Below, piece by piece: positions 4,462-41,580 of a stretch of DNA of 64,000 nucleotides (its first letter is position 1; each line of letters opens with the position of its first letter). The stretch spans positions 8,377 to 72,376 of the forward strand of contig JBAXXI010000002.1 in the NCBI GenBank assembly GCA_037127955.1, given 5' to 3'. A program made the position numbers and the translations under genes. The notes under the pieces are model-generated. The model was not told where the DNA came from and did not search any database. It saw only the letters and a program-made list of their open reading frames with translations. The stretch comes from Candidatus Berkelbacteria bacterium (GTDB lineage Bacteria > Patescibacteriota > UBA1384 > UBA12157).

Positions 4462-4707
4462 TTAGGAGTAAGTGACGCGGATTCCTGCGTCGTGCTGAAG
4501 GTCTAATGCCTTTTGACCAATAATACTGTAATTTGTTTCGCGACCGGCGACAACTTTAGCTTTTTCGCGGAAATGATCCGTAAAAAATTGCCCCATTGCT
4601 TCTTCAGCGGTTGTGCCACTGGTTGCTTTTGCTGGTTTGTTGAATTCGTAAACTAAGAAATCCTTAGTCCGTTTTAACAATACCAGGTGTACAACTTTCC
4701 CATTCAT
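4462..4707 (-). CDS. hypothetical small protein (81 aa, possible alpha/beta-barrel fold)
   Basis: Start moved to MNGKVVHLV... because AAGGAG lies 7 nt upstream. No firm family assignment. Confidence 0.4.
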   Translation of the reverse strand: MNGKVVHLVLLKRTKDFLVYEFNKPAKATSGTTAEEAMGQFFTDHFREKAKVVAGRETNYSIIGQKALDLQHDAGIRVTYS

Positions 4708-13937: not shown

Positions 13938-14003
13938 ATTCCGAGTATATATTATCTACAATCAAGTATCTAGTTCTATTTCCTTGGCCGCCAGACCCAT
14001 ATT

Positions 14004-14026
14004 TTTGGGTGTAGGGGTTGACTTTG
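14004..14026. repeat. solo copy of the GGGTGTRGGGGTTGAC motif, again forming a -35 box (TTGACT-17-TAATAT)
   Basis: TTTTGGGTGTAGGGGTTGACT lies upstream of the hotdog gene at 14081. Confidence 0.5.
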
Positions 14027-25041: not shown

Positions 25042-25215
25042 ATTTCTACCTCCTCTGAGTTACTGATTTTCAAGTGATTAATCAGAATAATAGACCATTT
25101 TTCGCCAAAAGTCAAGCCCCATACCCAAAATTTCAGCATGAGGATTATGTCTCTGGTCAAGGTTCAAAAAATTTGATAGAATAAAATCAATATTTAATCA
25201 CTTCAAAGGAATAAT

Positions 25216-27336: not shown

Positions 27337-27795
27337 ATCCGAAATCCGAATTCTAAATTTCAAATAAAAGGCGAAAATGTCAAATGATGAAACCAAATTT
27401 GACTTAGAAGAAAGAACCGCTAAATTCGGTGAGGATGTTATAAATTTCGTTAAAACGATACATTTAAACGAAATCAATCGCCCATTGATCAGTCAATTAA
27501 TCAGATCTGCAACAAGCGTAGGCGCCAATTACTGTGAAGCAGATTGCGCAGAAACAAAAAAGGATTTCGAGCATAAGCTTGGAATATGTCGTAAAGAATC
27601 AAAAGAAACCAAACACTGGTTGAGAATGATGGCGACAGCCCAACCAGATTTAAAAGAAAATCTACGATCAATATGGAAAGAGTCCAACGAATTAAATTTA
27701 ATCTTCTCTTCAATAATTCGTAAATCTAGAAATAAATTGTAGAATTGGAAATTTAATATTTTATTCGACATTCGAGTTTCGTCATTCTGATTTAT
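27335..27795. mobile_element. Long copy B of the TIR repeat, carrying the four-helix-bundle (Avd/IVS-protein-like) gene
   Basis: Left end AAATCCGAAATCCGAATTCTAAATTTCAAATAAAA overlaps the valS stop codon. Right end AATTGGAAATTTAATATTTTATTCGACATTCGAGTTTCGTCATTCTGATTT. The ORF 27377..27742 lies between them. Confidence 0.7.
27377..27742 (+). CDS. four-helix-bundle protein (23S rRNA intervening-sequence protein / Avd-like family)
   Basis: LISQLIRSATSVGANYCEA and KKDFEHKLGICRKESKETKHWLRMM match the family signature; 121 aa. Located inside a TIR-bounded repeat. Confidence 0.8.
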   Translation: MSNDETKFDLEERTAKFGEDVINFVKTIHLNEINRPLISQLIRSATSVGANYCEADCAETKKDFEHKLGICRKESKETKHWLRMMATAQPDLKENLRSIWKESNELNLIFSSIIRKSRNKL

Positions 27796-29648: not shown

Positions 29649-32354
29649 ATGTTTCAAAATTTTAAAAAAATTCCACAACTTTTATTCATTGCATTAGCTA
29701 TTTTTGGATTTGGCTATTTTTTGCAACATAATCATACAGATTTCAATACTAATATTGGTGTAGCCCACGCAGCCGTAACACTTGAACAATCGACCAAAAC
29801 CATAAATTCACTTCATGCCGAATTAACTTCAGCTACAGCTGCAAGTGAAGGCACTGCCTGGATCTTCAGCGTCTGGAAAGTCATGATGGGACTAGCCAAC
29901 GCTTTTGTCGCCATCATTTTGATTTTCTTTGCCTTTGTTAATATTGCCCATATCGAGTACGACACTTATCAACTCAAAAAAGCTTTACCGAAACTGATTA
30001 TTGGTATAGTTATGGCTAACTTTAGCATGCTTATTTGCCGCATGCTAGTTGATCTAGCCTCAGTCTTAACCGCTACTTTCACTCATAACCCAAAAGGTTT
30101 AATGGGTGGAATTATGTGCGCTATGGGCATTCATCCAAGTGGCAGTATCGGTGAATATTTTCTACAAATATTAGCTCAACAATGGCTCTGGATTCTTTTA
30201 GTTGTTTTGGCAGTCTTTATCTCGATTCTTTATCTAGGCATCTTATTACTCATTCGACATGGCGTTATCTTGGTTTTAGCAGCCGTCGCTCCAATTGCTT
30301 TTATTTTGCTCGCTTTTCCACCAACTGAAAGTTACTTTAAAAAATGGTGGGAATGGTTTGTTAGTTGGACTTTTATGGGTCCAATTATGACACTGATTCT
30401 TTGGATGGCTGGTATGGTTGGTGGCGCCGGAGAATTTACAGGCACAGTTTGCGCTCCAACTACAACTTTTAGCTGGCTCCGGGCGTTTACCACCCTGGCT
30501 TTACTCTATGTTGCCGGTATTGTTCCAAGTAAACTTGGTGGCGAAGTCATGGGCGCATACAAAAACGCGGTTCACGGCGCTGGTAAAGCTGCTTACGACA
30601 ATCCTTGGAGCAAACGCAAACGCGAAATCATGGGCAATGATCTAAAACACAAGTTTTATGGTAACACTAAACTTGGTCGCTGGATGGAACAAGGCGTCAG
30701 AAACGATGAAGCCATGCTTGAGGCACAAAAAAACGAAGAAGAAGTTCGCAAGGGTTTGCGCGACCTGACTACTCCTGACTCAACCGCTGAACGCAATGCA
30801 ATTGCTAAAGAACGTTTAATCAGATTAAAGACCGAACTTGAAAACCAGGGCGATGAAAGACTAGCTAAACATATGAAAATCAATATCGATGCCATTACTG
30901 ACACCGATTTAGCTAGCAAAAAACTCAAACGAGCCATGGATCAAATCAAGAAAAAAGGCATGACCGATGCCTACAAAGGCGCCAAAGGTGCAAAATTAAC
31001 TGAAGAAGATATTGAAGACGCTCAAGTTACTCGTGATCTTGACCAAGCTCAAAAACAACAAATGACGGCCGCTTATGACGACGATATTAAAGGTACGGCT
31101 TTGACTCAAAAAGATATTGAAGATGCTCGTGTGACCCGTGATTTAGAAGCAGCAAAAAAGAACAAAATGACACTGGCTTATAAAGGAGCAGGCGGCGATA
31201 AACTGGTTGAAGACGAACTTAAAGATGTTGTTGCTACTGGCAAAATGGAGAAAGCCAAAAACGATGCTACGGCTAGAGTTTATTTAGGTGCTACTGGTAG
31301 AAAAATGGCCGAATTTGAATCTGGTATTGCTAATTCACAAATGGCTATTGACAAAGTTAAAGACGATCAAAGAGTCTTAATGGCTACCGAGCGTTTAGCC
31401 GGCCATGAGATTATTCACGATTTAATTAAACAGTACGACAAAGACAACGAAGCCGCTGGCCGTCCATCAAACTTAAACAATGCTTATAAGGAAGTTGATA
31501 ACTTTACGATGGAATTGGCTAATGCTAAGACTGAACCAGAAAGAGTTGCCGCACAAGCTAAACTCGATATTGCCTTAACTAATTTAGAAACTGGAAAAAA
31601 AGCTTTTGCCGCCGACCTTCACAGTAAGGGTAAATTTGCAACAGCCAAAGACGCTGATGAATTTGTTGAAAATAGCCATTTACAACGCTACGAACGCACT
31701 AGACATATGGCTATTATCGGCAAGCGTGTTAATGACGATGCCACTGTCGATGCTCAAAGTATGTCTTCTAGCGCCGCTATCGGAGACTTGGTTAAATCAG
31801 ATGGCAGTCTCGACGGTGGTAGTTACGGCCCGTACACTTGGACAGCCAAGACCAATGAAGATTTCTGGAAAGGTGTTCGCTCTGACGATCCTGACTCCAG
31901 AGCTGGAGCCTTAGGTATTGCCACAAAACTTGATACCGTGAAACGTAAAATGCATGATTCTCAGACTCGAGGTGCGGCTATCAAGGATTACTCTAAGGTT
32001 ATTAGCGCCGGTAACCCTGAGTGTTTCAAAGCTCATATTTCTACAGCTATTCATGAATTAAAAGATGCTGAAAGAGCACAATTAGATAAAAGTCTTCGTG
32101 ATCGAGGTAAAACACCTGCAAGTGGTACAGATTTTACTTTAGAAGATTATAGTCGAATCTTAGGCGAAACAACTCTAGATACCACTACTCCTAATAGCGT
32201 TGAGAACAAATTTGCCAGTCGATTAATCAACTCTTTGCAACAAAATGATGATGCCGAAATAACTTACAAAGATGACGCTGGTGTCGATCAAACTATCAAA
32301 GGTGGTTTCACTGGTCTTGGTCGACAGTCACACTACTATGCCCGTATGGGTTAA
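29649..32354 (+). CDS. polytopic membrane protein, VirB6/TrbL-like N-terminal domain with about 500-aa charged repetitive C-terminal domain
   Basis: Roughly 6-7 TM helices in the first 300 aa with a VirB6-like topology (inferred, not searched). The C-terminal half contains internal repeats (DIEDAQVTRDLDQAQKQQMTAAYDDD / DIEDARVTRDLEAAKKNKMTLAYKGAGG). Confidence 0.4.
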   Translation: MFQNFKKIPQLLFIALAIFGFGYFLQHNHTDFNTNIGVAHAAVTLEQSTKTINSLHAELTSATAASEGTAWIFSVWKVMMGLANAFVAIILIFFAFVNIAHIEYDTYQLKKALPKLIIGIVMANFSMLICRMLVDLASVLTATFTHNPKGLMGGIMCAMGIHPSGSIGEYFLQILAQQWLWILLVVLAVFISILYLGILLLIRHGVILVLAAVAPIAFILLAFPPTESYFKKWWEWFVSWTFMGPIMTLILWMAGMVGGAGEFTGTVCAPTTTFSWLRAFTTLALLYVAGIVPSKLGGEVMGAYKNAVHGAGKAAYDNPWSKRKREIMGNDLKHKFYGNTKLGRWMEQGVRNDEAMLEAQKNEEEVRKGLRDLTTPDSTAERNAIAKERLIRLKTELENQGDERLAKHMKINIDAITDTDLASKKLKRAMDQIKKKGMTDAYKGAKGAKLTEEDIEDAQVTRDLDQAQKQQMTAAYDDDIKGTALTQKDIEDARVTRDLEAAKKNKMTLAYKGAGGDKLVEDELKDVVATGKMEKAKNDATARVYLGATGRKMAEFESGIANSQMAIDKVKDDQRVLMATERLAGHEIIHDLIKQYDKDNEAAGRPSNLNNAYKEVDNFTMELANAKTEPERVAAQAKLDIALTNLETGKKAFAADLHSKGKFATAKDADEFVENSHLQRYERTRHMAIIGKRVNDDATVDAQSMSSSAAIGDLVKSDGSLDGGSYGPYTWTAKTNEDFWKGVRSDDPDSRAGALGIATKLDTVKRKMHDSQTRGAAIKDYSKVISAGNPECFKAHISTAIHELKDAERAQLDKSLRDRGKTPASGTDFTLEDYSRILGETTLDTTTPNSVENKFASRLINSLQQNDDAEITYKDDAGVDQTIKGGFTGLGRQSHYYARMG

Positions 32355-33195: not shown

Positions 33196-33220
33196 TTGAC
33201 CCCCACACCCAATAAAATTT
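33196..33220. repeat. left inverted repeat flanking GIY-YIG gene (TTGACCCCCACACCCAATAAAATT)
   Basis: Reverse complement AATTTTATTGGGTGTGGGGGTCAA matches the motif at 33504..33530 in 22 of 24 positions. Confidence 0.6.
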
Positions 33221-33473
33221 ATTCTAAAGAATGCTTAATACGTTTTTTGAGTTGATTAAAAGCATTACTTCTTAATTTTAAGTTATGCTCTCTATGTCTC
33301 GCATCCTTTTCCGCCTTGTAAACTTCGGTATAAACAAGCTCGAAAGGAATGCGAGTTTTTGTTGAAAAAACTTTTCCACTATTATGTTCCTCTAACCTTC
33401 TTTTTAAATTAGAGGTCGAACCAATATATAATTTTTCATCTTTTAAACTTTTCAAAATATATAAACAAAACAT
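33219..33473 (-). CDS. GIY-YIG nuclease family protein (stand-alone, 84 aa)
   Basis: LYIGSTSNLKRRLEEH matches the GIY-YIG core (YIG…R…E). Confidence 0.85.
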   Translation of the reverse strand: MFCLYILKSLKDEKLYIGSTSNLKRRLEEHNSGKVFSTKTRIPFELVYTEVYKAEKDARHREHNLKLRSNAFNQLKKRIKHSLE

Positions 33474-33503
33474 GTATTAATTTTATCATATTTTGAAAAA
33501 ATG

Positions 33504-33530
33504 AATTTTGTTGGGTGTGGGGGTTGACAA
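33504..33530. repeat. right inverted repeat flanking GIY-YIG gene (AATTTTGTTGGGTGTGGGGGTTGACAA); also supplies the -35 of a consensus promoter
   Basis: TTGACA at 33524-33529, then 17 bp, then TACAAT at 33547-33552. Confidence 0.6.
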
Positions 33531-33740
33531 ATGGGCCTTTTTGTGTTACAATAGCATGTTCTTGAAAAATGATTAATTTAGTCATTTGGATAGTTACCTT
33601 AAAAATAATTCCAATTCTGCTTTAGATTGGTTTACATAGAAAAAGCCTTTCCGGCTAGTTTATTTTGCCAGGCCTTTTGCCCTGGAAGCGTTTTATAACG
33701 CACGACAGGGTCAATTGGACCCGCCACAGGAGATACTGTA

Positions 33741-34634
33741 ATGAAAAACACTCTGCTTGCCGCCATTTTAATGGCCATCATGACCTTAATCATAGGGTCA
33801 ACCTGTTTTGCTGCCGAAGCAGCCTGGACAACTAAGGGTAAACCTGCCTGTTTTGATGATTTAAATACCAATTTAAATTTTAATCAAAACCCGGCTAACC
33901 CGCCTGCTAACCCCACCTATATCCCTGTTAAGGGCGATCAAGGTGATCAGGGTCCAAAGGGTGACAAAGGCGAACCTGGAAAAACCATTGTCAAGACCGT
34001 CGTGAAGTATGCTCATGCTCACAGGAATCACACTTCAACTTCAATCGGTCACGAAAAGGTTTACCAGGAATTAAAAAAATGGAAAATCGCCTCTCAAGGT
34101 GATATTGATCGCAAGATCGCCGAACAAAAGTCCATTGATAAAAAAGATGGCAAGTCAGAAAACAAACCTGACACGACCGTGACCAAAGAGTCACAACCAC
34201 AGGAGAAGAAAATGTCAGAAACGTTAATTGGTTTTATCGCGGCCTTAATATTCATTGCAGCTGTTAGTATCACTTTAGTGATGTTAAACAATGCCAAAGA
34301 AGCTGCCGTATTGAAAGCTGAAGCTGCCAAGCTCGAAGCCGCTGAAAAAGAGCGCAAAGAAGCTGCTGCTGAACGAGAAAGAATTGCTCGCGAAGATCGT
34401 CTCGAAAGAGAACGCAAAGAAGCAACGATCAATGAGATTAAATGGACAATGGCTGGTAATATTGTTTCAAAACAATTCAGCCAAAAAAATGACCAGGAAG
34501 TTGAAAATTCCGCCAATATTATTGGCATCGGCAATTTCAGCTCCAAATCAAGTCCTGTCCGTATAACATCGGATAGATCTGATACCACTACTGATGCGAC
34601 CGGGGACGCCGGAGGCGCAATCTCTGATATCTAA
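33741..34634 (+). CDS. membrane protein with short collagen-like Gly-X-Y repeat and Ala/Glu-rich coiled coil
   Basis: Signal/TM at the N-terminus, GDQGDQGPKGDKGEPGKT, a TM (LIGFIAALIFIAAVSITLVML), then EAAKLEAAEKERKEAAAERER. Confidence 0.5.
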   Translation: MKNTLLAAILMAIMTLIIGSTCFAAEAAWTTKGKPACFDDLNTNLNFNQNPANPPANPTYIPVKGDQGDQGPKGDKGEPGKTIVKTVVKYAHAHRNHTSTSIGHEKVYQELKKWKIASQGDIDRKIAEQKSIDKKDGKSENKPDTTVTKESQPQEKKMSETLIGFIAALIFIAAVSITLVMLNNAKEAAVLKAEAAKLEAAEKERKEAAAERERIAREDRLERERKEATINEIKWTMAGNIVSKQFSQKNDQEVENSANIIGIGNFSSKSSPVRITSDRSDTTTDATGDAGGAISDI

Positions 34635-38982: not shown

Positions 38983-39924
38983 ATGAATACACAAGAAATT
39001 TTTGATCTCGGTATTAAAATGGGGATGAAGGCCGACCCTCGTGGAAAAGTTGGCGTGAAACGCTGGTTGGATTTACAAAAAAAGAAATTTGATAAACTTT
39101 CTAAAGAGGAAAAAGAATTTTTTGATCTTGAACGACTGAACAATCCTTATGCCGACAGCCGGATTCATTTTGCTAATAAAAAACCAGTCAAAACAGTTTT
39201 GGCCGGAATTGATGTGGAAGTCGGTGAAATTGCCTTGATCAAGGCTTTAAATAAAAATATCGATCTGATAATTACTCATCATCCTCAAGGTAAATCACTG
39301 GTTGATCTGGATGTCAATATGTCTATGATGGCTGATATGCTGGCTAGTTATGGCGTGCCAATCAATGTCGCCGAAGGCGTGATGCGCGATCGAATTCAAA
39401 CCGTAGCTCGCCGTATTTCTCCAGAAAATCATTTTCAATCAATTGACGCTGCTAAAATGGCTGAAATTCAACTACTTAATCTGCATACGCCTTGCGATAA
39501 TTTAGTTTGGCAATTTTTAGAAGACTTAATGACCAAGAAAAAACCTGAAACCGTTGGCGAAATTGTTGAAGCACTTAAAACTGTACCAGAATATAAGCAA
39601 GCAGCTAAGGAAGGTGCTGGCCCGATGATTTTTGCCGGAGCCCCGGAAAACCGCTGTGGCAAAATCGCTGCATTTGACACCACTGGCGGCACCTCTGGTA
39701 GTAAAGAAATCTACCCAGAATTAGTCCGTGCCGGCATTGGTACCGTCATTGGCATGCATATGAACGAAGAAAACCGTGAAGAAGCGCTTAAAAATCACTT
39801 GAATATCGTTATTGCGGGACACATTAGTTCTGATTCACTTGGTATGAATTTATATCTTGACGAACTCGAAAAACAAGGTATCGAAATAGTACCAATTTCA
39901 GGGTTGATAAGAGTGAAAAGGTAG
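38983..39924 (+). CDS. Nif3-like (GTP cyclohydrolase 1 type 2 family) dinuclear-metal protein
   Basis: DLIITHHP motif and a C-terminal IVIAGHISSDSLGMN segment resembling the Nif3 AGHYxxE signature. Assigned from memory. Confidence 0.45.
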   Translation: MNTQEIFDLGIKMGMKADPRGKVGVKRWLDLQKKKFDKLSKEEKEFFDLERLNNPYADSRIHFANKKPVKTVLAGIDVEVGEIALIKALNKNIDLIITHHPQGKSLVDLDVNMSMMADMLASYGVPINVAEGVMRDRIQTVARRISPENHFQSIDAAKMAEIQLLNLHTPCDNLVWQFLEDLMTKKKPETVGEIVEALKTVPEYKQAAKEGAGPMIFAGAPENRCGKIAAFDTTGGTSGSKEIYPELVRAGIGTVIGMHMNEENREEALKNHLNIVIAGHISSDSLGMNLYLDELEKQGIEIVPISGLIRVKR

Positions 39925-39964
39925 TCATCCTGAACTTGTTTCAGGATCTACTCATGAAGGATAT

Positions 39965-40258
39965 ATGAAAAAACAATATTATACATATTTTTTAACAAAT
40001 AAAAATAATACGGTTTTATATATTGGTGTTACGAATAATTTAATCAGAAGAGTCTACGAACACAAAAATAAATTAATCGATGGTTTTACTTGTCATTACA
40101 ACCTGGATAAGCTAATTTATTTTGAATTATTAGATGATCCAAAAACAGCAATTGCAAGAGAAAAACAACTAAAAAATTGGCACAAAGATTGGAAATGGAA
40201 TTTGATAAAAGCAAATAATCCTAACTTAAAAGATTTATATGACGAGATGCTGAAATAA
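39965..40258 (+). CDS. GIY-YIG nuclease family protein (stand-alone, 97 aa)
   Basis: YTYFLTNKNNTVLYIGVTNNLIRRVYEHK is a GIY-YIG core. Confidence 0.85.
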   Translation: MKKQYYTYFLTNKNNTVLYIGVTNNLIRRVYEHKNKLIDGFTCHYNLDKLIYFELLDDPKTAIAREKQLKNWHKDWKWNLIKANNPNLKDLYDEMLK

Positions 40259-40278
40259 ATTCAGCATGACAAATGTTT

Positions 40279-41430
40279 TTATTTCATCGCTTTCTTAAGC
40301 TCTTCCACCTTATCTGTCTTTTCCCAAGTCAGGTTTAATTCTGTTCTACCAAAATGCCCATAAGCGGCTAGTTTTTGGTATACTGGTTTACGTAAATCTA
40401 GAGCCTCGATAATCATGCCTGGGCGTAAATCAAAAACTTTATTGACAGCTTCGGCAATCTTATCATCTTCAAACTTACCGGTACTAAAGGTATCAACTCG
40501 AACTGACATAGGCTCAGCTCGACCAATCGCATAAGCAATTTGCACTTCGGCGCGTTCAGCGAGCCCGGCAGCCACAATATTTTTGGCAACCCAACGGGCG
40601 GCATAACTACCAGATCGGTCAACCTTACTTGGATCTTTACCAGAGAAAGCACCGCCACCGTGGCGAGCATAACCGCCATAAGTATCGACGATAATTTTGC
40701 GACCAGTTAAACCAGTGTCGCCTTGAGGCCCACCAATCACGAAACGACCAGTAGTATTAACATAGAATTTAGTTTTACTGTCCAAATATTTCTCTGGAAC
40801 AACTTTTTTAATCACTAATTCGATAATTTCTTTTTGCAACTCTTTTTGTTTAATATTTTCATCGTGCTGAGCCGCGATTAAAACTGATTCAACTCTGACC
40901 GGTTTGTTACCATCGTACTCCACTGTGACCTGAGTCTTTCCATCTGGTCGAAGACCTTTGATAATCCCTTTTTTCCTAACTTCAGCTAAACGCGCAGCTA
41001 ATTTATGAGCTAAAACGATTGGTAAAGGCATAAGTTCCTTGGTTTCGGAACAGGCATAACCAAACATCAAACCTTGATCGCCGGCGCCAAGTTTCTCCAT
41101 ATTTTCCGCATCAACACCGCGAGCAATATCTACCGATTGACCAGTAATAGCCACATTGACGCCGCTAGTTTGCCAGTGGAAACCATATTCTGAGTCTGTA
41201 TAACCAATTTCTTTAATTTTGTTGCGAACAATCTTTTGAACATCAACATAAGTGTTAGTGGTAATTTCACCAGCAACCAAACAAAAACCATTAGTCAAAA
41301 AGGTTTCGCAAGCCACCCTAGCTTGAGGATCGTCAGTTAAAATTGCATCTAAAACCGCATCGGAAATTTGGTCAGCCATTTTGTCTGGGTGACCCTCGGT
41401 CACTGATTCGGAAGTAAAAAACTTTCGCAT
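40279..41430 (-). CDS. metK: S-adenosylmethionine synthetase
   Basis: [29 protein letters not shown] and DTYGG motifs. Confidence 0.97.
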
Positions 41431-41444
41431 TTTGTCCTTTCATT

Positions 41445-41580
41445 TACAAAAAAATCACCTTTTAAGGTGATGTATATTTTTACATTTTTCCCTAAAGGGT
41501 CGGAATTAGCACCCAACTTAAAGGGTTGCTGGTGGATCAACGGGCCGAATCCCTAACCACACTCTGAATATATTTTAGTT
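41445..41580 (-). promoter_or_regulatory. SAM-I (S-box) riboswitch in the metK leader, with intrinsic terminator as expression platform
   Basis: Minus-strand leader contains AGGGAUUCGGCCCGUUGAUCCACCAGCAACC … GGUGCUAAUUCCGACCC, matching the SAM-I core (GAGGGA-YGGCCCGAUGA…GGCAACC…GUGCYAAUUCC). This is followed by UCACCUUAAAAGGUGA and a U-run just before the metK ATG. Confidence 0.7.

What the first reader, a model, noticed from the sequence alone, without database searches (positions are those of the whole stretch)
33196..33530. GIY-YIG nuclease gene bracketed by a 24-bp inverted repeat whose core recurs as a promoter -35 context
TTGACCCCCACACCCAATAAAATT (33196-33220) and AATTTTGTTGGGTGTGGGGGTTGAC (33504-33530) are inverted copies enclosing the 84-aa GIY-YIG ORF. 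The right copy supplies TTGACA of a perfect promoter firing into the collagen-like gene. A third copy at 14004-14026 (GGGTGTAGGGGTTGACT) also sits at a -35 position. Either the GIY-YIG cassette is a small mobile element with promoter-bearing ends, or GGGTGTGGGGGTTGAC is a transcription-factor or UP-like site and the symmetry is coincidental. A second GIY-YIG gene at 39965 has no such flanks.
Basis: seen in the sequence. Interest (0 to 1): 0.55.

Follow-up and report, generated by a model that had tools for sequence, protein, structure and literature searches.

The report
Tiny mobile GIY-YIG nuclease element
The inverted repeat is real and marks the two ends of a 324-bp mobile DNA element that carries only an 84-residue nuclease gene and landed inside a promoter's -35 box; relatives in other bacteria show the same ends, a 4-base target duplication and matching empty sites.

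Summary
Window 33200-33523 is bounded by 24-25-nt inverted arms (CCCCCACACCC... / ...GGGTGTGGGGG) and encloses an intact 84-aa GIY-YIG gene on the minus strand.

TTGA is directly repeated just outside both arms (33196-33199 and 33524-33527). It reads as a 4-bp target duplication. The right copy is part of TTGACA-17-TACAAT, so the promoter hexamer is target DNA, not element DNA.

In 84 loci carrying close homologues:
- 59 have the same arm pair around the ORF.
- 25 of 53 non-redundant copies have a perfect 4-nt direct repeat, 11 different tetramers, in one register only.
- Flanks fit YNNR in 51/53 and 52/53 cases, against a 24% background.
- The arms covary.

One Omnitrophota pstA/pstB junction occurs empty, full, internally deleted, and as full copy plus hairpin in tandem.

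The closest known system is Ssn/SRM (Chenal 2025): small GIY-YIG ssDNA nucleases flanked by their own hairpin repeats. No duplication or empty site was reported there. I rate this a new variant of a known kind. That it was inserted is well supported. How it moves is inferred.

The parts
33196..33199 (+). Left copy of the 4-bp direct repeat TTGA (putative target-site duplication)
   Evidence: Read from the sequence. It is identical to 33524-33527. Across the family, 25 of 53 copies have a perfect 4-nt direct repeat in exactly this register.
33200..33223 (+). C-rich terminal arm (CCCCCACACCCAATAAAATTTATT). It lies at the 3' side of the nuclease gene and overlaps its stop codon (33219-33221).
   Evidence: Read on the gene's strand, this is the G-rich arm that follows the stop codon, as in 59 of 84 related loci.
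33219..33473 (-). 84-aa single-domain GIY-YIG nuclease gene, intact
   Evidence: Pfam PF01541, 61 bits. The residues invariant across the family (Y5, Y16, R26, H30, E62) are present. AF2 model pLDDT is 89, and the best fold matches are UPF0213 BH0048 and Slx1. dN/dS is 0.056 against the L006 copy.
33480..33488 (-). Extended -10-like TGATAAAAT, 6 nt before the ATG. There is no Shine-Dalgarno sequence, so this is a candidate internal promoter for a leaderless nuclease mRNA.
   Evidence: Read from the sequence. TGATAAAAT or TGTTAAAAT sits at the same place in L006, L008 and L009. Function is inferred.
33500..33523 (+). G-rich terminal arm (AATGAATTTTGTTGGGTGTGGGGG), upstream of the nuclease gene
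   Evidence: Folded as ssDNA, the two arms pair in both the MFE and the centroid structure, z = -5.5.
33524..33527 (+). Right copy of the direct repeat TTGA. It forms the first four bases of the -35 hexamer.
33524..33552 (+). Sigma-70-type promoter TTGACA-17-TACAAT (TG upstream of the -10) for the 297-aa gene. This is host DNA into which the element inserted.
   Evidence: 11 of 12 matches. Removing the element and one TTGA restores ...AACCTCTTGACAAATGG... with the hexamer intact (inference).
33741..34634 (+). Downstream 297-aa orphan membrane protein with six Gly-X-Y triplets, served by the promoter above. It is context, not part of the element.
   Evidence: The only hit in 5.8 billion proteins is itself.
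13988..14017 (+). Decayed gene-less copy: CCGCCAGACCC-atattttt-GGGTGTAGGGG. Flanks are TTGG on the left and TTGA (14018-14021) on the right. The TTGA starts the -35 of the fabZ-like gene promoter.
   Evidence: The hairpin is no longer significant as ssDNA, z = -0.5, so assigning it to the family rests on arm identity and flank.
25112..25143 (-). Decayed gene-less copy on the minus strand: CCTCATGC-tgaaatttt-GGGTATGGGGC, followed by TTGA (25115-25112). The TTGA starts the -35 of TTGACT-17-TATTAT for the 145-aa ORF.
Evidence: Its fold is not significant.

Best explanation
Window 33200-33523 is one copy of a family of very small (275-334 bp) mobile elements. Each consists of an 84-86-aa single-domain GIY-YIG nuclease gene packed between two inverted arms: 5'-CCCCCACACC(A/T)A.. 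on the coding strand and ..(T/A)GGTGTGGGGG-3'.

This copy inserted at the tetranucleotide TTGA inside the TTGACA -35 hexamer of the 297-aa gene's promoter. The insertion duplicated TTGA, so an intact promoter remains to the right of the element. The nuclease gene points the other way. It probably has its own extended -10 promoter and a leaderless mRNA.

Shown:
- The arms, the exact 4-bp direct repeat and its YNNR constraint.
- Covariation of the two arms.
- Gene-less and internally deleted derivatives.
- An empty site in a close relative at one family locus.
- Strong purifying selection on the ORF.

Inferred:
- The encoded nuclease itself mobilises the element. It would recognise the stem that the two arms form in single-stranded or branched DNA, as the related Ssn nucleases do with their hairpin repeats.
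- It nicks each strand 5' of a pyrimidine with a 4-nt stagger at GGGGG|YNNR.
- Host functions complete the joining and fill-in.

The motif copies at 14007 and 25116 are eroded gene-less copies at two further TTGA(C) sites.
For: - **Bracket.** The arms lie within 60 nt of the start and 70 nt of the stop in 59 of 84 loci (53 non-redundant). Median element length is 298 bp and median IR length 20 nt. The C-rich arm is always at the 5' side of the coding strand. Nearly all remaining loci have at least one arm or are cut by a contig end.
- **Duplication.** A perfect 4-nt direct repeat abuts the arms in 25 of 53 copies, with 11 different tetramers. The permutation mean is 5.3 and the maximum 12 in 5000. 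The count is 0 of 53 if the boundary is moved by 1 nt, and 0 of 53 for 5-nt repeats.
- **Target constraint.** Flanks fit YNNR in 51/53 (left) and 52/53 (right) against a background of 0.24, p about 1e-29.
- **Arm covariation.** 91.4% of cells are paired against 79.5% in shuffles (0 of 500). 10 of 16 pairs change on both sides. The covariation score is 0.297 against 0.094 or less when the pairing is slid.
- **Site states at the Omnitrophota pstA/pstB junction.**
  - L090 is empty: AAAAAATGGTAAAGTTTGAT.
  - L036, L047, L059 and L094 are full, with TAAA on both sides.
  - L095 carries a 139-nt internally deleted copy.
  - L094, L076 and L060 carry a full copy plus a hairpin in tandem, separated by TAAA.
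  - Flanks are 85-90% identical between the empty L090 and the filled L076 and L091.
  - Removing the element and one TAAA predicted a 248-aa PstB starting MVKF. That is what 81 of the 120 closest PstB clusters have.
- **tRNA site.** tRNA-Ile in L039 starts with the element's last GGG, and the orphaned GGGCACA remains on the other side.
- **Gene-less copies.** 32 arm pairs of 28-132 nt lie in the flanks of the loci.
- **Protein.** Catalytic residues are invariant. dN/dS is 0.05-0.2. The profile search gives 3,607 cluster representatives at E<=1e-10. Source names include Berkelbacteria, Margulisiibacteriota, WOR-1, Colwellbacteria and Bathyarchaeia at about 70% identity.
- **Precedent.** Ssn nucleases bind and cut their own flanking hairpin repeats, as ssDNA only (PMC11893778).
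Against: - No empty allele was found for the window's own site. The 297-aa gene is an orphan. The only closer relative, L006, has the element at the same place. The only other relative, L005, is too diverged.
- Only 25 of 53 copies have a perfect duplication, and TAAA alone accounts for 9 of them.
- GIY-YIG enzymes are hydrolytic nucleases with no known strand-transfer activity. The joining step therefore has no assigned catalyst.
- The window holds only one intact copy in 64 kb. That copy has stayed at one site through a divergence of pS = 0.5 under purifying selection, which fits a domesticated gene as well as an active element.
- About 10 of 84 loci have both arms upstream of the gene rather than around it.
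- Many copies have no room for an internal promoter.
Confidence: 0.8

Rival explanations
1. The element arose by insertion, but the window copy is now a fixed, host-maintained Ssn-like nuclease. Its arms and the scattered gene-less copies would serve as its recognition sites. The system would process single-stranded DNA, for example restricting or shaping incoming DNA, rather than propagate itself.
For: The element is at the same site in L006, with pS = 0.50 and dN/dS = 0.056. There is only one intact copy in 64 kb. SsnA in Neisseria limits transformation by NTS-bearing DNA, and its authors propose domestication. The gene sits beside a TrbL_3-type secretion or uptake cluster.
Against: Filled and empty pstA/pstB alleles are interleaved. 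Filled P0173 is 96% identical to empty P0137 but 84-93% identical to the other filled alleles. Tandem and deleted copies exist. The same protein at about 70% identity occurs across unrelated phyla. All of this points to continuing mobility somewhere in the family. This rival overlaps with the main explanation rather than excluding it.
Confidence: 0.3
2. The arms are the ends of a MITE-like hairpin element moved by some other enzyme acting in trans. The GIY-YIG gene would be a homing-type invader of its loop.
For: Gene-less arm pairs are common, and some of their loops have no similarity to the gene. Free-standing GIY-YIG homing endonucleases are well known.
Against: The ORF is packed against both arms. 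The ATG lies as little as 11 nt from one end, and the stop codon lies inside the other arm. L095 shows a gene-less form produced by internal deletion of the gene. At least 506 relatives were found in one scan, and in the 84 loci examined the gene travels with these arms across phyla. No transposase gene lies nearby in the window. The protein has no DNA-binding domain of the homing-endonuclease kind.
Confidence: 0.1
3. GGGTGTGGGGG is an operator or UP-like promoter element for a regulator. Under this reading, its inverted copy behind the GIY-YIG gene is coincidental.
For: Three copies in the window abut TTGAC of promoter-like sites. So does the dnaK promoter copy in L008 and L009.
Against: Across 53 non-redundant loci the arms abut any YNNR tetramer, most often TAAA. 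These sites include stop codons, gene overlaps and tRNA 5' ends, not promoters. The arms always come in inverted pairs that covary. The insertion is absent from an otherwise 85-90% identical site.
Confidence: 0.03
4. The repeat acts at the RNA level. The arms would pair in a transcript to control translation or processing of the nuclease mRNA, as with the stems around 23S rRNA intervening sequences.
For: The arms covary. In many copies the start codon lies inside the pairing region.
Against: In the window copy the likely promoter lies inside the upstream arm, so that arm would not be transcribed with the gene. RNA pairing explains neither the 4-bp duplication nor the empty sites nor the gene-less copies. 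Ssn enzymes do not act on RNA.
Confidence: 0.05

Closest known systems
Ssn nucleases with NTS/SRM repeats (Chenal et al., Nat Commun 2025, PMC11893778; CDD cd10448)
   Same: Both are small single-domain GIY-YIG proteins (94 aa in N. meningitidis, 84 aa here). In both, the gene is bracketed by its own hairpin-forming repeats in inverted orientation, with further gene-less copies elsewhere. The residues mutated in SsnA (Y6, Y17, E64) correspond to the invariant Y5, Y16 and E62 here. The authors themselves note the IS-like layout.
   Different: Here the two arms pair with each other across the whole gene, rather than each flank being a self-contained hairpin. The motif has no GTC..C frame, and the published SRM pattern finds nothing in the window. 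The protein is a separate clade: 36% identity to the window's SRM-type paralogue, with UPF0213 as the nearest solved structure. A 4-bp target duplication, empty sites and deletion derivatives are seen here; the paper contains neither 'duplication' nor 'target site'. Named hosts include CPR lineages and Margulisiibacteriota, and the pstA/pstB loci are from Omnitrophota.
REP / REPIN sequences with RAYT transposases
   Same: Both have one nuclease gene per genome flanked by inverted copies of a short palindromic repeat that is also scattered, gene-less, in intergenic DNA.
   Different: RAYTs are HUH Y1 enzymes of the IS200/IS605 type, not GIY-YIG. REP and REPIN insertion leaves no target duplication (established knowledge of the family, not tested here).
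Classical insertion sequences and their MITEs, such as Neisseria Correia elements
   Same: Shared features are terminal inverted repeats, a short target duplication, internally deleted gene-less derivatives, and frequent location at promoters with little damage to them.
   Different: The element has no DDE, DEDD, HUH, serine or tyrosine transposase. The whole coding element is about 0.3 kb. From my own knowledge, the smallest recognised autonomous ISs are about 0.6-0.7 kb, roughly twice that size.
Free-standing GIY-YIG homing endonucleases (I-TevI, Seg proteins)
   Same: They share the catalytic domain and a selfish, horizontally spread gene.
   Different: The protein here has no linker or DNA-binding domain. 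There is no single homing site. Terminal repeats and a target duplication are present, which homing does not produce.
Slx1 and the UPF0213 family (BH0048, 1ZG2)
   Same: These are the best structural and sequence matches to the protein. Slx1 cuts branched and stem-loop DNA.
   Different: Slx1 is a eukaryotic repair nuclease with a RING domain and a partner, Slx4. UPF0213 proteins have no assigned function or repeats that I know of.

Membership tests
GIY-YIG nuclease superfamily | Match to the GIY-YIG catalytic domain profile above the curated threshold | tested here: met
   PF01541, 61 bits against a cut-off of 22.6, covering residues 1-73.
GIY-YIG nuclease superfamily | Conserved catalytic residues: two Tyr, Arg, His/Tyr and the metal-binding Glu | tested here: met
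   Y5, Y16, R26, H30 and E62 are invariant in 23 sequences at 67-93% identity to the window protein.
GIY-YIG nuclease superfamily | Alpha/beta fold with a three-stranded sheet | tested here: met
   AF2 model pLDDT 89.4, with strands 2-9, 15-20 and 44-52. Foldseek top hits are UPF0213 BH0048 and Slx1.
Ssn family (cd10448) with SRM repeats | Assignment of the protein to CDD cd10448 | not testable with these tools
   No CDD search is available. Indirect evidence: 36% identity over 64 aa to the window's SRM-flanked paralogue; PDB matches to UPF0213 proteins, which the paralogue does not match.
Ssn family (cd10448) with SRM repeats | Single-domain protein of about 90-100 aa | tested here: met
   84 aa, GIY-YIG domain only.
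Ssn family (cd10448) with SRM repeats | Gene flanked on both sides by hairpin-forming repeats that also occur elsewhere in the genome | tested here: met
   The arms bracket the gene. Gene-less copies occur in the window and in related loci. The layout differs: one split palindrome rather than two hairpins.
Ssn family (cd10448) with SRM repeats | Repeats fit the published SRM pattern HGTCWYN(0-2)YYVSBRHN(0-5)WNVSBRGN(0-2)RNCYNB | tested here: not met
   0 matches in the window. The arms have no GTC..C frame.
Ssn family (cd10448) with SRM repeats | Site-specific cleavage of single-stranded DNA only | not testable with these tools
   This needs biochemistry.
Insertion sequence / DNA transposon (general definition) | Terminal inverted repeats | tested here: met
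   25 nt at 92% in the window. Median 20 nt in 53 non-redundant copies.
Insertion sequence / DNA transposon (general definition) | Target-site duplication of fixed length | tested here: met
   4 bp, perfect in 25 of 53 copies and in one register only. TTGA/TTGA in the window.
Insertion sequence / DNA transposon (general definition) | Filled and empty alleles of the same site | tested here: met
   Met for the family: L090 is empty; L036, L076, L091, L094 and L095 are filled. Not obtained for the window's own site.
Insertion sequence / DNA transposon (general definition) | Encodes a transposase of a recognised class (DDE, DEDD, HUH, Ser, Tyr) | tested here: not met
   The only ORF is a GIY-YIG domain.
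Insertion sequence / DNA transposon (general definition) | Several copies per genome | tested here: inconclusive
   One intact and two decayed copies in 64 kb. The rest of the 228-kb contig was not read.
REP/RAYT | HUH Y1 transposase gene between inverted REPs | tested here: not met
   There is no HUH domain; the protein is GIY-YIG.
Free-standing GIY-YIG homing endonuclease | Catalytic domain joined to a DNA-binding domain, with one conserved homing site and no terminal repeats or duplication | tested here: not met
   84 aa with no second domain. TIGR01453 scores 23 bits against a cut-off of 56. Insertion sites are many and different, and each carries TIRs and a duplication.
Promoter-associated regulator or UP-like site | Motif at a fixed distance from -35 in many promoters, independent of GIY-YIG genes | tested here: not met
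   Three window copies abut TTGAC. Across 53 loci, however, the arms abut any YNNR, mostly outside promoters.

The most novel reading that the evidence does not exclude
This is an autonomous DNA transposon of only about 0.3 kb whose sole protein is an 84-aa GIY-YIG nuclease acting as its transposase. If so, it would be a class of prokaryotic transposable element outside the DDE, DEDD, HUH, serine and tyrosine families.

In this reading the nuclease recognises the stem formed by the two arms. It cuts at GGGGG|YNNR on both strands with a 4-nt stagger. The resulting cohesive 4-nt ends would allow both precise excision and insertion, with only host ligase or repair needed.

If true, the Ssn-type gene-repeat pairs described in 2025 would be relatives or domesticated descendants of such transposons.
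Probability: 0.4. Interest if true: 0.88.

Novelty: new variant of a known kind. Interest (0 to 1): 0.72.

Why it matters
If the 84-aa nuclease moves its own element, this would be a very small self-mobilising DNA element. From my own knowledge it is about half the size of the smallest recognised autonomous ISs. It would also add GIY-YIG nucleases to the short list of enzyme families that drive DNA transposition in prokaryotes.

It would supply what the 2025 Ssn work left open, namely evidence that such gene-repeat pairs really insert. The evidence here is a target duplication, empty sites and deletion derivatives. That makes the origin of these repeats directly testable.

The copies also show how insertions can be tolerated in tiny CPR and Omnitrophota genomes:
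- The duplication preserves a -35 box in the window.
- The element's last GGG rebuilds the 5' end of a tRNA.
- An arm donates a new start codon to pstB.

On the practical side, a family of very small nucleases, each with its own DNA recognition stem, is of interest as a source of tools.

Tried and rejected
- **Orthologous loci via the neighbouring 901-aa TrbL_3 protein in species-representative genomes.** This gave one relative at 41% identity (L005). It is syntenic and has no element, but its neighbours are not detectably homologous, so it is not a usable empty site.
- **Homologues of the 297-aa downstream gene.** The only hit was itself.
- **Exact-protein look-ups of the window proteins.** Every contig found carries the element.
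- **The published SRM degenerate pattern.** It gives 0 hits in the window, even at the second gene's hairpins.
- **Rfam and tRNA scans of the window.** Nothing lies at the locus. The only hit is a SAM riboswitch at 41479-41574.
- **Terminator scan at the arms.** None found.
- **Folding of the two solo copies as hairpins.** The folds are not better than shuffles, so I call these copies decayed rather than intact.
- **Plasmid and phage collections.** No protein match at 1e-8. Viral contigs gave only 2 weak matches, so no vector for the cross-phylum spread was identified.
- **Literature searches.** I searched for GIY-YIG with TIR/TSD, MITE, REP, Patescibacteria, COG2827/UPF0213 and the motif strings. 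No description of this element turned up; the Ssn paper was the only relevant hit.
- **Integron attC-type cassettes.** I considered and dropped this idea. The ORF lies inside the palindrome, there is no integrase or array, and a variable 4-bp duplication is present.
Full report
**1. The observation.** The repeat finder reports arms 33199-33223 and 33500-33524, 25 nt, 92% complementary, 276 nt apart. An 84-aa ORF on the minus strand (33473..33219) lies between them and matches Pfam GIY-YIG at 61 bits. The 16-mer GGGTGTRGGGGTTGAC is found 3 times at up to 2 mismatches, against 0.04 expected. Three of the four are followed at once by TTGAC and a -10 at 17 nt.

**2. A detail that changes the reading.** On the + strand the sequence is ...CCTC TTGA|CCCCCACACCC...GGGTGTGGGGG|TTGA CAAATG.... 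The TTGA on each side is in direct orientation, so it is not part of the inverted repeat. It has the form of a 4-bp target duplication. The element proper is 33200-33523 (324 bp). Removing it together with one TTGA leaves CCTCTTGACAAATGG, with TTGACA-17-TACAAT intact. The -35 hexamer is therefore target DNA that the duplication preserved. It is not a promoter brought in by the element.

**3. Source and surroundings.** The window comes from a Candidatus Berkelbacteria MAG (GCA_964547745.1, a 228-kb contig). The element lies between a 264-aa gene that follows a TrbL_3-type 901-aa protein and an orphan 297-aa membrane protein. The nuclease gene has no Shine-Dalgarno sequence. It has TGATAAAAT 6 nt before the ATG, an extended -10-like site that recurs in L006, L008 and L009. 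I infer a leaderless mRNA from an internal promoter.

**4. The same bracket elsewhere.** The protein has more than 340 relatives at E<=1e-5 in the word-indexed search. Most are about 70% identical and 84-86 aa long. Source names include Berkelbacteria, Margulisiibacteriota, WOR-1, Colwellbacteria and Bathyarchaeia. A profile search of 1.84 billion cluster representatives gives 3,607 at E<=1e-10. One metagenome scan found at least 506 loci, and I kept 80. Adding three close relatives and the window copy gives 84 loci.
- In 59 of the 84, a C-rich arm lies within 60 nt upstream of the start and the complementary G-rich arm within 70 nt downstream of the stop.
- 53 of these copies are non-redundant. 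Median element length is 298 bp (range 275-334) and median IR length 20 nt.
- The ATG can lie 11-14 nt from one end, and the stop codon often lies inside the other arm.
- Most of the other 25 loci are cut by contig ends, have a frameshifted ORF, or have both arms about 100 nt apart upstream of the gene (about 10 loci, including L008 and L009).

**5. Target duplication.**
- The 4 nt outside the two arms are identical in 25 of 53 copies. Eleven different tetramers occur: TAAA x9, TCAA x4, CACA, TTGA and TTTA x2 each, and CAAG, CTTG, TGAA, CACG, TCCG, CCTG once each.
- Permuting the partners gives a mean of 5.3 and a maximum of 12 in 5000 trials.
- The count is 0 of 53 if the boundary is moved by 1 nt, and 0 of 53 for 5-nt repeats.
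- A further 17 copies differ at one position.
- The flanks obey YNNR in 51/53 (left) and 52/53 (right), against a background of 24% (p about 1e-29). G is preferred just before the left copy, at 26 of 53.

**6. The arms covary.** On the terminal 16 nt of each arm (45 distinct rows), 91.4% of cells pair, against 79.5% in shuffles (0 of 500). Ten of 16 pairs change on both sides. Examples are CCCCCGCACC/GGTGCGGGGG, CCCTCACACC/GGTGTGAGGG and TCCCC.../...GGGGA. The covariation score is 0.297, against 0.094 or less when the pairing is slid. Folded as ssDNA, the window element closes on the arm stem in both the MFE and the centroid structure, z = -5.5. This result does not separate selection for pairing from concerted evolution of two ends read by one protein.

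**7. Empty, full and deleted alleles at one site.**
- Several Omnitrophota loci carry the element at the pstA/pstB junction...AAATGGTAAA|element|TAAA ATTC....
- Removing the element and one TAAA predicts an ATGGTAA stop/start overlap and a 248-aa PstB that begins MVKF.
- Of the 120 closest PstB clusters, 81 begin MVKF, and most of the listed clusters are 248 aa. Six are 253 aa and begin MTIGAG or similar. That N-terminus is the translation of the right arm, ATGACAATTGGTGCGGGGG.
- L090 (GCA_030655815.1) is the empty site...AAGAAAAAATGGTAAAGTTTGATATC... Its flanks are 90.5% identical to filled L091 over 740 nt, and 89.6% and 85.5% identical to filled L076.
- L094 has TAAA-full element-TAAA-52-nt hairpin copy-TAAA.
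- L095 has a 139-nt copy in which the middle of the ORF is deleted. This shows how gene-less forms arise.
- Filled alleles are scattered among empty ones. Filled P0173 is 96.3% identical to empty P0137 but 84-93% identical to the other filled alleles. This implies repeated insertion at the same TAAA or precise loss.
- A second kind of internal control comes from tRNA genes. In L039, tRNA-Ile starts 3 nt inside the element (GGG + CACATAGC...), while the displaced original GGGCACA remains on the other side.

**8. Gene-less copies, and the other window motifs.** The 2.5-kb flanks of the loci hold 32 further arm pairs of 28-132 nt. Several have perfect 4-nt repeats. The window copy at 13988-14017 reads CCGCCAGACCC-atattttt-GGGTGTAGGGG, with flanks TTGG and TTGA. 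The copy at 25143-25116 (-) reads CCTCATGC-tgaaatttt-GGGTATGGGGC, followed by TTGA. Neither folds better than shuffled sequence, so I call them decayed gene-less copies. In this sub-lineage every G-rich arm abuts the TTGA of a -35 box: three sites in the window and the dnaK promoter in L008 and L009. I could not tell whether that reflects target preference or the survival of harmless insertions.

**9. The protein.** Y5, Y16, R26, H30 and E62 are invariant. The AF2 model (pLDDT 89) has the GIY-YIG fold, and its best matches are UPF0213 BH0048 and Slx1. dN/dS is 0.056 between the window and L006 copies, with pS = 0.50, and 0.05-0.2 in other pairs. The nuclease is therefore under selection to work. 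No relative was found on plasmids or phages, and only two weak matches in viral contigs.

**10. What is known.** The closest published system is the Ssn family (Chenal et al. 2025, PMC11893778).
- These are 94-aa single-domain GIY-YIG proteins (cd10448). They bind their own flanking hairpin repeats (NTS/SRM) and cut a few nucleotides upstream, on ssDNA only.
- 42% of the genes have such repeats on both sides.
- The authors note the IS-like layout and suggest domestication.
- The paper mentions no target duplication, empty site or CPR lineage.
- The window's second GIY-YIG gene (39965-40258, 36% identical to the first) is flanked by two inverted GTCAT-stem-loop-stem-ATC hairpins, each with z about -4.7. 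It looks like that type, although the published SRM pattern does not match it.
- The element studied here shares the logic but differs in four ways: one split palindrome encloses the gene; the motif is different; the protein clade is different; and there is direct evidence of insertion.
- Other searches found no description of it.

**11. How it most likely works.**
- Shown: an insertion bounded by covarying inverted arms, with a 4-bp YNNR duplication, deletion derivatives, and a conserved active-site nuclease.
- Inferred: the nuclease recognises the arm stem in single-stranded or branched DNA. It nicks each strand 5' of a pyrimidine next to the G run with a 4-nt stagger, both at the element ends and at targets that resemble GG|YNNR. 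Host enzymes then join and fill in.
- A hydrolytic GIY-YIG enzyme has no known strand-transfer activity. This is the weakest step.
- The main rival is that the window copy is now a fixed, useful Ssn-like gene. That fits its long residence at one site, and it does not conflict with the origin by insertion.

**12. Verdict.** The finding is real and the mobile-element reading is right. The promoter belongs to the target, not to the element. I rate it a new variant of a known kind (GIY-YIG gene-repeat pairs of the Ssn type). The chance that it is a genuinely new class of transposon is substantial but unproven.

Noticed in passing
window 39924-40270: The second GIY-YIG gene (39965-40258, 97 aa) is flanked by two inverted hairpins: GTCATCCTGAACTTGTTTCAGGATC (39924-39948, +) and GTCATGCTGAATTTATTTCAGCATC (40246-40270, -). 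Each is significant as ssDNA, z about -4.7. The GTC-palindrome-C frame resembles the Neisseria NTS/SRM repeats of Ssn nucleases, but the published SRM pattern does not match.
   Followed up: partly
window 41479-41574 (-): A SAM riboswitch (RF00162, 54.9 bits) lies upstream of the S-adenosylmethionine synthetase gene 40279-41430 (-). This is an ordinary arrangement.
   Followed up: no
window 27377-27742 (+): A 121-aa four-helix-bundle / 23S rRNA intervening-sequence protein gene (TIGR02436, PF05635) lies directly after valS. This is another small gene type that is scattered in such genomes. Only a weak inverted repeat surrounds it (19 nt, 74%).
   Followed up: partly
L036, L047, L059, L094, L091 (Omnitrophota pstA/pstB junction): In filled alleles the pstB start codon and its first five or six codons (MTIGAG, MKIGVG) are supplied by the right arm of the element. 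Empty alleles start MVKF from an ATGGTAA overlap with pstA.
   Followed up: yes
L039 2777-2851; also L025 359-441: tRNA genes begin inside the last 1-3 G of the element. The insertion rebuilt the 5' acceptor stem, and the displaced original 5' bases remain on the other side of the element.
   Followed up: partly
L008 about 130-170 and L009 about 4610-4640: The dnaK promoter contains a perfect palindrome, TGTAAAGT-N2-ACTTTACA, overlapping the spacer between TTGACA and the -10. It is a candidate heat-shock operator and is unlike CIRCE or HAIR.
   Followed up: no
L008, L009, L015, L017, L030, L031, L040, L054, L055, L062: These loci share a second layout. Both arms, about 100 nt apart and often with extended ends (GGCCTG...CGTGCC), lie upstream of the nuclease gene rather than around it.
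   Followed up: partly
profile search hits, e.g. P0261-P0263, P0271-P0281: Many proteins of 230-370 aa (up to 514 aa) carry this type of GIY-YIG domain at their N terminus. I did not examine these fused forms.
   Followed up: no
window 29649-32354 and neighbours: A 901-aa TrbL_3-type membrane protein sits in a cluster of orphan genes beside the element. It may be a type IV secretion or DNA-uptake apparatus of this CPR bacterium. That would be relevant if the nuclease acts on incoming single-stranded DNA.
   Followed up: no
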